Positions 3,322 through 12,827 of a DNA stretch of 60,155 bases are shown one piece after another. The stretch is from contig CACDLR010000001.1 in assembly GCA_902553695.1 (NCBI GenBank), positions 1 through 60,155 on the forward strand, written 5' to 3'. A program made the translations under genes and the position numbers. The stretch comes from an uncultured Pelagibacteraceae bacterium. Its GTDB lineage: Bacteria; Pseudomonadota; Alphaproteobacteria; Pelagibacterales; Pelagibacteraceae. The notes beneath the pieces are model-generated. The model worked only from the letters and a program-made list of their open reading frames with translations. It had not been told where the DNA came from and did not search any database. Positions within the stretch are counted from its first letter, which is position 1, and the number at the start of each line of letters is the position of its first letter.

Positions 3322-3652
3322 ATGTATTTTAATAAATTTTTTGAAATAAATAAGCAAAATAAAGGTTTTAAAAGAATTTTAAAATTTAACTGAAATTTGC
3401 TTTATTTGATAACTTAAAAAAATCAAATAATAGTTTAAATTTAGGCAATTAATCAATAATTTTACAATTAATTACAAAGCAAACTCTAAAATATTGGTTA
3501 GCTTTGCGTATATAGAATATAGTGATTAAACGGCCATAGAAGGGGCTTATTCAAGAATTATGTTATTACCAGCTCAACTGATAGGAGAAGATAAAAAATT
3601 AACTCTATTTATAAGGATATTTGAAAAAACTGTTGAAAATAAACAATTCTAA
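3322..3652 (+). pseudogene. Probable decayed gene remnant
   Basis: Protein-like frames broken by stops and a frameshift; final TAA (3650-3652) overlaps the ogt stop in the same 4-bp convergent style as intact gene pairs in this window. Confidence 0.35.
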
Positions 3653-3924
3653 AAGCAAATACCCTCCATTTTAAGAAGTTTCTTTTTTGTTTTAATTCCC
3701 CCGGGGCCTGAATAACCACCTAAACCTCCGTCAGATCTTATTACTCTATGACAAGGAACATTGGGGGCATAAGGGTTTTTTCCGACAGCATTTGCAACAG
3801 CTCTTGCTGCTTTCGGTTTTTTTATAGCTTTTGCTACATCTAGATAAGTCCGAAGTTGACCTTTTGGTATTGTTTTAAGATATTTCCAGACTTTGATTTG
3901 AAATTTAGTACCCTTAAAAGTCAT
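3649..3924 (-). CDS. ogt: Methylated-DNA-protein-cysteine methyltransferase (minimal MGMT, 91 aa)
   Basis: FQIKVW..L.TIP.G, ARAVANA and active-site PCHRV; likely start is ATG 3924 rather than 3987. Confidence 0.92.
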   Translation of the reverse strand: MTFKGTKFQIKVWKYLKTIPKGQLRTYLDVAKAIKKPKAARAVANAVGKNPYAPNVPCHRVIRSDGGLGGYSGPGGIKTKKKLLKMEGICF

Positions 3925-3928
3925 AATG

Positions 3929-3974
3929 AAAAAAAACCCCTGTTTCCTTGCACTTTTTACGGTGCAAAGAACAG
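3929..3974 (-). terminator. Terminator-like hairpin plus U-tract at the 3' end of the candidate RNA
   Basis: Stem 3940-3953/3962-3974 followed on the minus strand by GGG and U8. Confidence 0.5.
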
Positions 3975-4117
3975 TTGTTTTTGGCACGTCGTTTTATGCG
4001 CTACCGCCATGCCCACCACTCTACGATTTTAGCGCTACTCCGCAGAGTTTTCTGCCCCCTGAGCTTGAACCTCTCGGTTTTTCCTCAATTGGCCAGTTAA
4101 GAGTTGCCTCTTAAGTT
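3929..4117 (-). ncRNA. Candidate structured non-coding RNA (about 190 nt)
   Basis: 50% GC over 3937-4110 (hand count) in an AT-rich genome; five hairpins; GCAA and GAGA tetraloops on the minus strand; extended -10 upstream; 3' U-tract. Confidence 0.75.
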
Positions 4118-4124
4118 AAAAAAA

Positions 4125-4133
4125 ACAATATCA
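4125..4133 (-). promoter_or_regulatory. Extended -10 element (TGaTATTGT) of the candidate RNA
   Basis: TGn-TAnnnT lying 7 nt before an A at 4117 that precedes the first hairpin. Confidence 0.4.
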
Positions 4134-4222
4134 AACCTTTTATTTAAATGTAATCACTTAATTGTTGTATTTATTAAGTTTTTAACATATTTGAATAGTG
4201 GGGATAATTTATAATTTGGATT

Positions 4223-4399
4223 TTAGTCCATGAATATTAGACCTAAATAGCTTAATGAGAACAAAATGGCTAAAATCGATAAAAAATAAGTTTCTATTGT
4301 TTTTCCATGCTTTTTGTTTTGAATATAAGTTAATATCCAAAATCCAATAGCACTTAATAAAAATATTATGTCAGGAATTTCTCCATCAATTGTACCCAT
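4223..4399 (-). CDS. Unannotated 58-aa two-TM membrane protein
   Basis: ATG..TAA open frame MGTIDGEIPDIIFLLSAIGFWILTYIQNKKHGKTIETYFLSILAILFSLSYLGLIFMD; below the ORF-track length cutoff. Confidence 0.7.
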   Translation of the reverse strand: MGTIDGEIPDIIFLLSAIGFWILTYIQNKKHGKTIETYFLSILAILFSLSYLGLIFMD

Positions 4400-4417
4400 A
4401 TTTTTTAATTTAAACTA

Positions 4418-4446
4418 TTGACATCTAAAATCACTTAATATATTAC
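4418..4446 (+). promoter_or_regulatory. Sigma70-type promoter of the recombinase
   Basis: Perfect TTGACA, 17-bp spacer, then TATTAC overlapping the palindrome's left arm. Confidence 0.5.
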
Positions 4447-4476
4447 TAGTGATAATTAATTGTTATCGATAGTAAT
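4442..4476. repeat. Palindromic putative recombination site (14-7-14)
   Basis: ATTACTAGTGATAA-ttaattg-TTATCGATAGTAAT; arms match 12/14; ends 3 bp before the recombinase ATG. Confidence 0.7.
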
Positions 4477-4479
4477 TGT

Positions 4480-5433
4480 ATGAGTGAATTAACTACTGAA
4501 CTGAAATCGCTGCATGAGGAAACTTTAAACAACCTCAAAAGCTCTAAAGCAAATAATACCTTAAGAGCCTATAAATCAGATTTTAAAGACTTTGGAGCTT
4601 TTTGTTCAAGACATGGATTAAATTCATTACCATCAGAGCCAAAAATAGTTTCTTTATACCTAACCCACCTCTCAAAAAATTCAAAATTAAGTACACTAAG
4701 ACGTAGATTAGTATCAATAAGCATGATTCATAAATTAAAAGGTCATTATCTAGATACAAAACATCCTATAATAGTAGAAAATTTATTGGGAATAAGAAGG
4801 GTTAAAGGTAGTATTCAAAAAGGTAAAAAACCTTTATTAATCAATAATTTAAAGTCAATTATTAATGTAATAAATGAACAAAAAATTCATGAAATAAAAA
4901 AACTTAGAGACAAATCAATAATTTTAATTGGTTTTGGAGGAGGATTTAGAAGAACTGAACTCATTTCAATTAATCATGAGGATTTAGAATTTGTTCCTGA
5001 AGGACTTAAGATAAGTATTAAAAGATCAAAAACTGACCAATATGGTGAAGGAATGATAAAGGGAATTCCCTATTTTACAAACGAAATTTATTGCCCTGTT
5101 TTAAATCTTAAAAAATGGATAGAAATTTCTAAAATTAAGACTGGACCTATTTTTAGAAGGTTTTCAAAAGGTTTAACATTAACAGATAAAAGATTAACAG
5201 ATCAATCAGTAGTTTTAATAATAAAAGAATATTTAAACTTAGCTGGAATTGAAAATAAAAATTTTTCAGGTCATAGCTTGAGATCTGGATTTGCGACAGT
5301 AGCTGCAGAGTCAGGAGCAGATGAGCGTAGTATTATGGCAATGACAGGACACAAAACTACACAAATGGTTAGAAGATACATAAAAGAAGCCAATATATTT
5401 AAAAATAATGCACTTAATAAGCTTAAGATATAA
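4480..5433 (+). CDS. Cre-like tyrosine site-specific recombinase
   Basis: NTLRAY core-binding domain; intact catalytic set FRRTEL, SKTDQ, GHSLR, TGHK, RRY. Confidence 0.93.
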   Translation: MSELTTELKSLHEETLNNLKSSKANNTLRAYKSDFKDFGAFCSRHGLNSLPSEPKIVSLYLTHLSKNSKLSTLRRRLVSISMIHKLKGHYLDTKHPIIVENLLGIRRVKGSIQKGKKPLLINNLKSIINVINEQKIHEIKKLRDKSIILIGFGGGFRRTELISINHEDLEFVPEGLKISIKRSKTDQYGEGMIKGIPYFTNEIYCPVLNLKKWIEISKIKTGPIFRRFSKGLTLTDKRLTDQSVVLIIKEYLNLAGIENKNFSGHSLRSGFATVAAESGADERSIMAMTGHKTTQMVRRYIKEANIFKNNALNKLKI

Positions 5434-11135: not shown

Positions 11136-12827
11136 TCAGACTATTGCGTCTTTAATAATTAAATTAAAATCAGTGTTTTTTTGAATATTTTTATTATTAA
11201 TTTGAACAATTAAATCAACTTCTTTTTTAACATTCATTAAACAGTCCCCTAATATTGTATCAATAGCATTAAAAGCATAACAGACACATGATCTTTTATT
11301 TCTGTTAACTATAATGAGTTGTAAATTTGTATCTTTTATTATTTTAATTTTGAGAATTTTATTATTTTTAATTAAAAAAAAAGGATTTATATTGTTATTT
11401 CCAAACGGTTGTAGATTTTGAAGATCATATTTTGCAAAAGTTTTAAGTGAATTAAAATTTTGTTCACCTATGTAAGTCTTAATATTTTCAAAGTTATTAA
11501 ATTGTTTTATATAAATCATATTAAGAAACTTTTTGAAATCATCTAATTTTTCTTTTTTCAACGTACAACCTCCTGCCATTGAATGGCCACCCCCATTGAT
11601 AATAATTTTTTTTTGAATAGCTAAATAAAAAATATTTCCAATATCATAGCCGTTTATTGACCTAGATGAGCACTTAATTAAATTACCAGAGTTTGTTAAT
11701 ATAAAACTTGGTCTGTTATATAATTCGACATAATTTGCAGCGATTATTCCTAATAATCCTTCATTAATATTCTTTTTAAATTCAAAGATGACCTCGTTTG
11801 ATTTTAATTCATTATTATTTTTTAATAGTCTTATTGTTTTTTTTTGAATATTTTTTCTTTTTTCATTTAAATTTATTAGTTGATATTGAATTTTTTCAAT
11901 GTTTGATTTTTTGTTTTCAATTAATAACTTAAATGGTAAATCTGAAAATCCTAATCTTCCGGCTGAATTTATAATTGGTCCTAAAATAAAGCCAATATCA
12001 TTAGATGTGATTTTACTCTTTAAATTAACTAAATTTTTAAGTCTGTTTGATTTAATGCTATTAAATATGTTTAAGGCACTATTTACTATAATTTTATTAT
12101 ACATTCCTAGTGGTACTTGATCGCATACTGTAGCCATTCCTGCGAAAAATAAATACTTATTGAAATCAATCTTTTTCGTGATTTTTAAATAATTAGAAAG
12201 ATATTTAATAAAAAAAAATACCAATGTGGTTGCACAAAAAAAATACTTATTTTCAACTGGGTTTTTTAAGGGATTAATAATAACCGTATTTTTAAATTTT
12301 TCTTTTTGTTGAATTTTATGATGATCAATTATGATGATTTTTAATCCATTGTTTTCTAAAAAGTTAATTTCTTCTATTGAATTTGAGGCACAATCAACAA
12401 ATATTACTAAATTATAATTATTTTTATTAATCAGTTTTTTTAATAATTTAATATTTGGTCCATAACCATCAGTTAAACGTTCTGGTATGTAATAGTCACA
12501 ATTAATTCTGAGTTTTGAAAAATAATCATAAAGTAGATATGTAGATGAATATCCATCGACATCATAATCACCAAAAATAAGTATTTTTTTTTTGTTTTTA
12601 AAACAGTCTAATATAAATTTTCCAGCAGCACTAAAATCCTTATTTTGATAATTAAATTCATAATTTTTTAACTTATTAATAGAATTATAAATTTCTTCCT
12701 CGGTATAATTTTTATCTATAAAAATTTTTGATAGTAAATAAGAAATTTTAAAATTTTGTTTATTTTTGAGGATTAAACGTTCTGGAATATTATTGGTTTT
12801 CCAATTAATTCCATTGATAGATTTCAT
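11136..12827 (-). CDS. recJ: ssDNA exonuclease RecJ
   Basis: GDYDVDG, DGYG, IDHH, INSAGR, GGGHSMAGG and LQPFG motifs. Confidence 0.92.
   Translation of the reverse strand: MKSINGINWKTNNIPERLILKNKQNFKISYLLSKIFIDKNYTEEEIYNSINKLKNYEFNYQNKDFSAAGKFILDCFKNKKKILIFGDYDVDGYSSTYLLYDYFSKLRINCDYYIPERLTDGYGPNIKLLKKLINKNNYNLVIFVDCASNSIEEINFLENNGLKIIIIDHHKIQQKEKFKNTVIINPLKNPVENKYFFCATTLVFFFIKYLSNYLKITKKIDFNKYLFFAGMATVCDQVPLGMYNKIIVNSALNIFNSIKSNRLKNLVNLKSKITSNDIGFILGPIINSAGRLGFSDLPFKLLIENKKSNIEKIQYQLINLNEKRKNIQKKTIRLLKNNNELKSNEVIFEFKKNINEGLLGIIAANYVELYNRPSFILTNSGNLIKCSSRSINGYDIGNIFYLAIQKKIIINGGGHSMAGGCTLKKEKLDDFKKFLNMIYIKQFNNFENIKTYIGEQNFNSLKTFAKYDLQNLQPFGNNNINPFFLIKNNKILKIKIIKDTNLQLIIVNRNKRSCVCYAFNAIDTILGDCLMNVKKEVDLIVQINNKNIQKNTDFNLIIKDAIV

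What the first reader, a model, noticed from the sequence alone, without database searches (positions are those of the whole stretch)
3929..4117. Unexplained ~190-nt highly structured RNA next to the recombinase
Seen: a 50% GC island. On the minus strand it forms hairpin A UUAAGAG-GCAA-CUCUUAA (4097-4114), arm B UGAG..AACC-GAGA-GGUU..CUCA (4060-4087), 8-bp stem C (4018-4025/4041-4048), stem D (3983-3988/4008-4013) and long stem E followed by U8. GNRA loops and G-U pairs all favour the minus strand, and an extended -10 lies upstream. I see no hallmarks of tRNA, tmRNA, RNase P, SRP or common riboswitches. Inference: an independent structured ncRNA, or a leader of ogt, whose ATG is 4 nt past the U-tract.
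Basis: partly seen in the sequence, partly recalled or inferred. Interest (0 to 1): 0.85.

Follow-up and report, generated by a model that had tools for sequence, protein, structure and literature searches.

The report
Known RNA IMES-2 with kissing loops
This is a full copy of IMES-2, an already catalogued marine bacterial RNA of unknown function; two of its loops change in step across relatives and so likely pair, and its promoter carries sites resembling those of the replication initiator DnaA, which would link this RNA to chromosome replication.

Summary
The structure is real but not new. Window 3981-4121 (-) is a full-length IMES-2 RNA (Rfam RF02035, 157.4 bits, cut-off 54.7). This scan met it before on other genomes. 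It is a stand-alone, single-copy gene with its own promoter and terminator hairpin, found in 81 of 150 family genomes. It sits in at least four unrelated neighbourhoods, so across the family it is neither an ogt leader nor the recombinase's partner.

Two additions, not found in the papers searched (the original paper was not held). First, the loops of stems C and D covary as a 5-bp kissing helix: the two central pairs hold in 39 of 39 sequences, with 6 matched changes on the tree. Second, DnaA-type 9-mers lie at -90..-55 in 77 of 80 loci, against 5-6% background. One divergent copy lacks both features.

Best mechanism (inferred): a compact folded RNA that binds a housekeeping protein in trans, with output tuned by DnaA. 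The partner and the function are untested.

The parts
3981..4121 (-). IMES-2 RNA core (Rfam RF02035, model positions 1-141)
   Evidence: 157.4 bits, E 2.4e-41; the only copy in the assembly
4097..4114 (-).
   Evidence: 6 counted pairs 100% paired, 4 with two-sided changes; a GNRA-type tetraloop in all 39 aligned rows by inspection
4052..4096 (-).
   Evidence: lower helix 95% paired, 9 of 11 pairs with two-sided changes; apical helix 97.5% paired
4018..4048 (-).
   Evidence: 6 of 6 base-stem pairs with two-sided changes; loop flanks tallied
4031..4036 (-). P3 loop hexamer AGCGCU, first half of the kissing helix
3983..4013 (-).
   Evidence: 7 counted pairs 100% paired, 6 with two-sided changes
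3997..4002 (-). P4 loop hexamer AGCGCA, second half of the kissing helix
3929..3974 (-). Hairpin E plus U8, predicted intrinsic terminator; outside the Rfam model
   Evidence: a long hairpin of varying sequence follows the core in 49 of 49 loci with enough sequence; genus g5 copies have only a weak U-tract
4125..4133 (-). Extended -10 (TG-n-TATTGT); start inferred near 4118
   Evidence: sequence; no RNA-library contig covers 4126-4260, which may also reflect lower conservation
4152..4167 (-). Conserved CAAC-N6-GTGAT element near -35 to -50; binding factor unknown
   Evidence: present in 50 of 50 loci at -33 to -36 from model start; column counts; the promoter ranks first among intergenic sites in G073 and G000
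4190..4207 (-). Two abutting DnaA-type 9-mers (4199-4207 and 4190-4198)
3649..3924 (-). ogt / ATL-type alkyltransferase-domain gene; genus-specific downstream neighbour
   Evidence: PF01035 E 6e-33; TIGR00589
4223..4399 (-). 58-aa membrane-like ORF; abuts ogt directly in G023, which lacks IMES-2
   Evidence: no Pfam hit; three-way alignment
4480..5433 (+). Tyrosine recombinase; neighbour, not partner
   Evidence: PF00589; below XerC/XerD cut-offs; present in genomes without IMES-2

Best explanation
The element is a complete stand-alone IMES-2 RNA gene, and the RNA likely works in trans as a compact folded binder (decoy or scaffold) for a conserved housekeeping protein, with its output likely tuned by DnaA. 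SHOWN: family identity; single copy; four covarying stems; matched changes between the P3 and P4 loops; a terminator-like hairpin; four or more unrelated gene neighbourhoods; DnaA-type 9-mers at a fixed upstream position; presence in RNA libraries. INFERRED: a sigma-70 promoter makes an RNA of about 185 nt (about 4118 to 3930), possibly trimmed to the 140-nt core. P3 and P4, of similar length and adjacent, lock together through a 5-bp loop-loop helix, and the invariant P1 GNRA loop docks elsewhere in the fold. DnaA bound at -85..-65 sets promoter output with replication state. The protein partner is a core protein, because no dedicated gene was found to travel with the RNA. Confidence by step: identity about 0.98, stand-alone gene about 0.93, loop-loop pairing about 0.9, sites bound by DnaA about 0.55, protein-binding role about 0.45.
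For: Rfam hit. 94.5% of cells paired and 31 of 42 pairs with two-sided changes, against 31-42% paired when partners are slid. Kissing pairs 93-132 and 94-131 paired in 39 of 39, with 5 and 17 two-sided changes. Six changes in each loop on a tree built without those columns, always matched. Loop C pairs with loop D in 39 of 39 but with itself in only 22 of 39. Neighbourhoods differ: mnmA, SelO/RmuC, SNase/SRAP, recombinase/ogt. The roughly 290-nt cassette is cleanly absent in G023, 94.7% median protein identity to carrier G073. Boxes in 49 of 50 and 28 of 30 loci against 5-6% background. A matrix trained without the two genus-g1 loci ranks this promoter first in G073 and G000, and its best other hit in G023 and G073 lies in the hemE-PF03618 gap, where Caulobacter has its origin (PMC6393856, passages). 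No Hfq in 5 of 5 genomes, and little conserved sequence is left unpaired once the loops kiss, which argues against antisense action.
Against: No protein partner was identified; the protein-binding step rests on exclusion and analogy. The RNA is missing from 19 of 20 near-complete genus-g1 genomes and from about half the genus (79 of 150 carry it), so it is dispensable. One divergent copy in a closed genome (L229) has lost the P4 kissing loop and shows no upstream boxes. In genus g1 the first box is degenerate (14 of 30 within one mismatch of the recalled consensus). The hemE gap ranks first for box density only in G000 and is not in the top six in G023 or G073. Two copies (L031, L232) break one outer kissing pair. 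On the kissing helix alone, the two pair-count measures did not beat shuffles (180 and 224 of 500), and the sequences are kin. The read evidence is contigs only: no strand, ends or level.
Confidence: 0.45

Rival explanations
1. The loop-loop pairing is between molecules: P3 of one RNA pairs with P4 of the next, building RNA-only dimers or rings like the larger OLE, ROOL and GOLLD RNAs.
For: Covarying kissing contacts of ROOL and GOLLD proved to be intermolecular bridges (PMC12286853, passages). In L229 the P4 loop is replaced by a tetraloop while P3 keeps a self-complementary 8-nt loop that could pair only with another molecule. No protein partner gene was found.
Against: Covariation cannot tell within-molecule from between-molecule pairing. 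P3 and P4 are adjacent and of similar length, which suits a contact within one molecule (inference). Loop C is not self-complementary in 17 of 39 rows. L229 is a single case and may be decaying.
Confidence: 0.2
2. What is selected is partly the DNA: the tandem boxes act as a DnaA-titrating or DnaA-reactivating site (datA or DARS-like; recalled), and transcription of the RNA modulates it.
For: Boxes are kept at a fixed place in 77 of 80 loci across unrelated neighbourhoods. In G000 and G073 the cassette lies at the GC-skew-defined terminus region.
Against: There are only two boxes. The RNA fold itself is under strong pairing selection. The chromosomal position varies: about 234 kb from dnaA in G012, and beside mnmA in most genera.
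Confidence: 0.1
3. A functional stand-in for 6S RNA that binds RNA polymerase.
For: It has a similar size, and no 6S RNA was found in 5 of 5 genomes searched.
Against: No 6S match here even at E 10. It has four or five side-by-side hairpins and no closing stem or central bubble. G023 lacks both RNAs.
Confidence: 0.08
4. A cis leader or attenuator controlling ogt.
For: The ogt ATG is 4 nt past the U-tract. ogt lies downstream in 29 of 30 top genus-g1 loci. A few low-depth RNA-library contigs bridge hairpin E and ogt.
Against: ogt follows in only 2 of the first 50 loci. The next ORF is convergent in 28 of 29 mnmA loci and in all 10 genus-g12 loci. In two g1 loci a small ORF sits between the RNA and ogt. 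ogt persists without the RNA. There is no room for a ribosome-binding site after the terminator.
Confidence: 0.05
5. A guide or cofactor RNA of the adjacent tyrosine recombinase.
For: The recombinase is adjacent in 28 of 30 top genus-g1 loci.
Against: It is not adjacent in 48 of the first 50 loci. The recombinase is present in genomes without IMES-2 and lies about 470 kb away from the RNA in G012.
Confidence: 0.02

Closest known systems
IMES-2 RNA motif, Rfam RF02035 (attributed from memory to Weinberg et al. 2009 Nature; paper not held)
   Same: Full-length 157-bit match with the same four stems.
   Different: Nothing that removes it from the family. The model as printed stops before hairpin E and shows no loop-loop helix, but Infernal models cannot show pseudoknots, so the curators may have drawn it.
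OLE, ROOL and GOLLD homo-oligomeric RNAs (PMC12286853; abstract and passages read)
   Same: Orphan structured RNAs whose kissing loops are supported by covariation.
   Different: They are several hundred nucleotides long and shown by cryo-EM to oligomerise. IMES-2 is 140-185 nt and its oligomeric state is untested.
CcnA of Caulobacter crescentus (PMC8959179; passages read)
   Same: A 182-nt alphaproteobacterial ncRNA associated with DnaA boxes.
   Different: CcnA lies inside the origin, is presumed CtrA-driven and pairs with mRNAs. IMES-2 is not at the hemE gap and has no Rfam or structural match to it.
Parallel-hairpin kissing folds: lysine riboswitch L2-L3 and bacterial SRP Alu domain (recalled, not tested)
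   Same: Two neighbouring hairpins joined by a 5-6-bp loop-loop helix.
   Different: No Rfam match to either at E up to 10. No closing multi-way junction and no conserved downstream gene.
6S RNA (RF00013)
   Same: Stand-alone RNA gene of similar size.
   Different: No match, and a different architecture.

Membership tests
IMES-2 (RF02035) | Covariance-model score above the gathering cut-off, full length | tested here: met
   157.4 vs 54.7 bits, positions 1-141
IMES-2 (RF02035) | Four consensus stems kept by covariation | tested here: met
IMES-2 (RF02035) | Present in marine metatranscriptomes | tested here: met
   contigs laid in 8 of 8 RNA runs from 7 studies; no DNA-run control laid
IMES-2 (RF02035) | Exceptional abundance (recalled) | tested here: inconclusive
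   summed contig depth over the RNA far exceeds the flanks, but the runs were picked with this stretch and depth sums over organisms
Riboswitch or attenuator of ogt | Same-strand downstream gene conserved across the family | tested here: not met
   2 of 50 family-wide loci; 29 of 30 within genus g1 only
Riboswitch or attenuator of ogt | Conserved alternative anti-terminator fold | not tested
   hairpin E sequence is not conserved; alternative folds were not computed
6S RNA | RF00013 match | tested here: not met
6S RNA | Long closing stem with central bubble | tested here: not met
6S RNA | Binds RNA polymerase holoenzyme | not testable with these tools
   needs a pull-down
Hfq-dependent base-pairing sRNA | Hfq encoded by the host | tested here: not met
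   PF17209 in 0 of 5 genomes, 4 of them near-complete
Ornate homo-oligomeric RNAs (OLE/ROOL/GOLLD) | Covarying loop-loop contacts | tested here: met
Ornate homo-oligomeric RNAs (OLE/ROOL/GOLLD) | Large size and Rfam match to those families | tested here: not met
Ornate homo-oligomeric RNAs (OLE/ROOL/GOLLD) | Contacts are between molecules | not testable with these tools
   needs native gel or cryo-EM
DnaA-regulated promoter | DnaA-type 9-mers enriched at a fixed promoter position | tested here: met
   77 of 80 loci vs 5-6% background; absent in L229 by inspection
DnaA-regulated promoter | DnaA binds and changes transcription | not testable with these tools
   needs footprinting and reporters
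CcnA-type origin RNA | Gene lies within oriC | tested here: not met
   the hemE-PF03618 gap is on another contig (C9) in G000; the locus is at the skew maximum in G073

The most novel reading that the evidence does not exclude
IMES-2 is a DnaA-controlled RNA that reports or enforces replication state in the ocean's dominant streamlined bacteria. It folds or self-assembles through a covarying P3-P4 kissing helix. It would be the first catalogued member of a wider, cross-phylum class of abundant structured RNAs transcribed from DnaA-box promoters, which unchecked notes of this scan describe in other phyla.
Probability: 0.25. Interest if true: 0.7.

Novelty: already known. Interest (0 to 1): 0.3.

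Why it matters
The family is catalogued, so the finding as posed is not new. Its function was not found in any paper searched. The two features added here give concrete tests for an orphan RNA: loop-swap mutants for the kissing helix and a DnaA footprint for the promoter. At least one single-contig, 99%-complete genome carries a canonical copy (G491), and G073/G023 form a close pair with and without it. If DnaA control holds, the RNA's level in metatranscriptomes could report replication state in very abundant marine cells.

Tried and rejected
Partner gene by presence/absence: only six ORFs are shared by G073 and G000 and missing or far more distant in G023, none an evident RNA-binding protein. 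Pfam on 35 of the 66 G073-only ORFs of 55-420 aa (I left out those in evident pilus and LPS islands) showed no RNA-binding family, and 15 of the 35 had no hit. RecJ as partner: rejected; it is in 124 of 150 genomes, absent from carrier G073 and present in many non-carriers. Trade-off with the phosphate regulon: no association with PhoU in genus g1 (47/32/36/35, Fisher p 0.32; incomplete genomes, kin). Phage carriage: one exact pattern match in viral contigs, inside a capsid-type ORF, judged chance; one pattern only, so divergent copies would be missed. Wider distribution: 0 of 149 genomes of other families in the class and 0 of 60 in the sister family with my own model R1. A diverged copy in non-carriers: none in G023, G027, G037 or G017; weak hits in G014, of which the best (E 0.02) falls in a coding region and was rejected. 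My first reading that the RNA is rare in the window's genus (1 of 20) was a sampling bias towards closed genomes; a genus-wide draw gave 79 of 150. IMES-2 locus as oriC: rejected. Lack of contig cover upstream of 4126 is not used as proof of the start. Other Rfam families at E up to 10: two weak chance hits only. Meyer 2009 (PMC2704228; outline and passages) and the Red Sea mdRNA-seq paper (PMC5069720; passages) gave no account of this RNA in what I read. RMfam (PMC4333381) and a 2026 sRNA review (PMC13414033), passages only, gave none either.

Full report
OBSERVATION. The island is 46.6% GC against 26.7% for the window. The minus strand folds far better than chance (z -4.7, 0 of 200 shuffles) and better than the plus strand (z -2.4).

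IDENTITY. cmscan gives a full-length hit to IMES-2, RF02035, at 3981-4121 (-): 157.4 bits against a cut-off of 54.7. Nothing else credible appears at E up to 10. It is the only copy in the assembly. The host is inferred to be SAR11 (Pelagibacteraceae) from the small AT-rich genomes, the marine runs and earlier notes of this scan; no call names it. Eight look-alike notes from other genomes were returned, six calling this RNA IMES-2 as their main finding, so the scan has met it before.

DISTRIBUTION. The RNA is in 81 of 150 family genomes, one match each, and in 79 of 150 in the window's genus. It was not found in 149 genomes of other families of the class or in 60 genomes of the sister family using a model built here. 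Genera g14 (0 of 20) and g17 (0 of 12) had none, and neither did 19 of 20 near-complete g1 genomes. These family tallies include one genome flagged unpublished (G068, genus g14). G073 and G023 share 94.7% median protein identity. G073 has the roughly 290-nt promoter-RNA-terminator cassette between the small ORF and ogt; in G023 the two genes abut and no trace of the RNA was found.

NEIGHBOURS. I examined 50 of the 82 hits: the 30 loci returned plus 20 that I picked for divergence. Thirty-five lie behind mnmA, usually facing a convergent gene. Three lie between SelO and RmuC, ten between an SNase gene and a convergent SRAP gene, and two (the window and G073) between the recombinase and ogt. Within genus g1 the picture reverses: in the 30 best-scoring loci, 29 have ogt downstream, 28 have the recombinase and 1 is at mnmA. 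The neighbourhood is therefore lineage history, not function. A long hairpin of variable sequence follows the core in 49 of 49 loci with enough sequence, consistent with a terminator, though g5 copies have a weak U-tract.

TRANSCRIPT. Contigs from 8 of 8 RNA runs laid (7 studies) cover the RNA. In one search the highest cover runs from about 3930 to at most 4125 in three of four runs, including hairpin E; the fourth run (X15) has only low cover throughout. No run covers 4126-4260. A few low-depth contigs bridge E and ogt. Adapter-ended contigs at 3977-3984 in three studies hint at a shorter form ending after P4. These are contigs from runs chosen with this stretch, with no DNA control, so strand, ends and level are not shown.

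STRUCTURE. Alignment A1 holds 39 of the 50 loci; I dropped 11 near-duplicates or N-rich rows. Of 42 named pairs, 31 have two-sided changes and 94.5% of cells pair, against 31-42% when partners are slid. The addition is a loop-loop helix between P3 and P4. The two central pairs are kept in 39 of 39 rows, with six dinucleotide combinations (CG/CG, CA/UG, UG/CA, UA/UA, UU/AA, AA/UU). On a tree built without those columns each loop changes 6 times and the changes always match. Loop C pairs with loop D in 39 of 39 rows but with itself in only 22 of 39. For the helix alone, cells paired, two-sided cells and covariation score beat all 500 shuffles, while the two pair-count measures did not. The 30 g1 loci all keep the majority form and add no variation. 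Against: L031 and L232 break one outer pair. L229, a 69.7-bit copy in a closed genome, has a plain tetraloop on P4 while P3 keeps a self-complementary loop. Both loops open with R-G-Y-A and most close A-rich, which resembles a bulged-G motif; that resemblance is recalled and untested. Whether the curators already knew the pseudoknot cannot be told: the original paper and its supplement were not held, and Infernal output omits pseudoknots.

PROMOTER. Two abutting 9-mers lie 65-88 nt upstream. In 44 of 50 loci one is within one mismatch of the DnaA-box consensus (recalled), against about 0.7-0.8% of 49-nt intergenic windows (the windows differ in size). With the relaxed consensus in a fixed 35-nt window the counts are 49 of 50 and 28 of 30, against 5.1-5.9%. 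The window was chosen on the first 50, so the 30 are the fairer test, though they are kin. A matrix trained without the g1 loci ranks this promoter first in G073 and G000. Its best other hit in G023 and G073 lies between hemE and the PF03618 gene, the position of the origin in Caulobacter (PMC6393856, passages) and Sphingopyxis (PMC4741004, passages). That gap ranks first for box density in G000 but not in G023 or G073. L229 shows no boxes. A second element, CAAC-N6-GTGAT, sits at -33 to -36 from the model start in 50 of 50 loci; its factor is unknown. I noted the boxes before reading notes of this scan that describe other abundant RNAs behind DnaA-box arrays in other phyla. Those notes are unchecked leads, not support.

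MECHANISM. Cis control is excluded by the neighbourhoods. Antisense action is unlikely, with no Hfq in 5 of 5 genomes and the conserved loops occupied. No dedicated partner gene was found. Selection acts on the three-dimensional fold. I therefore favour a compact folded RNA that binds a core protein in trans, with DnaA setting its level (0.45). Next is RNA-only oligomerisation through the same loops (0.2), as in ROOL and GOLLD (PMC12286853, passages). No step of either is shown experimentally.

VERDICT. Already known family, and a textbook copy. No paper on its function appeared in searches of a library that lacks most subscription journals. Interest 0.3, for the testable kissing helix and DnaA-type sites rather than for the RNA call.

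Noticed in passing
window 4445-4473 and 4480-5433: An imperfect inverted repeat with a 7-bp centre sits just before the recombinase ATG and is conserved in 5 of 5 relatives. The recombinase is the only PF00589 gene in 4 of 5 near-complete genomes, and FtsK is present in 5 of 5. The site lies within about 1 kb of the cumulative GC-skew maximum in G023 (674.7 vs 675.2 kb) and G073 (169.0 vs 170.0 kb), and a KOPS-like octamer (recalled) switches strand bias around it. This looks like a single-recombinase dif system. PMC2731167 (passages) states that Pelagibacter ubique has no dif/Xer system. Earlier notes of this scan report the same module.
   Followed up: partly
L229:3077-3204 (-), genome G537: Divergent IMES-2 in a closed genome, in a fifth neighbourhood. 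The P4 loop is replaced by a tetraloop, the P3 loop is an 8-nt palindrome, and there are no upstream boxes. It is either a homodimerising variant or a decaying copy.
   Followed up: partly
window 4114 joined to 4004 or 3987: Contigs of two runs from one study join the RNA's 5' end to points near its 3' end at low depth (table 5c). This could be a circular or concatenated form, or a library artefact.
   Followed up: no
G000 C9:27396-27670; G023 66835-67118: The gap between hemE and the PF03618 gene carries several DnaA-type 9-mers and is the likely replication origin. It is about 31 kb from the skew minimum and 63 kb from dnaA in G023.
   Followed up: partly
window 3649-5433 versus G023 and G073: The recombinase is 88% identical to G023's, against 64-72% for four other genus members, and hairpin E is nearly identical to G073's, although genome-wide median identity to G073 is 68%. 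This suggests recent exchange of this terminus region between lineages.
   Followed up: no
window 11136-12827 (-): RecJ is found in 124 of 150 family genomes but not in 8 of 20 near-complete genus-g1 genomes with this query.
   Followed up: partly
genus g1 tallies: IMES-2 is in 1 of 20 of the most complete g1 genomes but in 79 of 150 of a genus-wide draw. Closed, probably cultured, genomes mostly lack it.
   Followed up: partly
G023 494699 (L095): A weaker match to the tandem-box matrix lies upstream of the HU gene.
   Followed up: no
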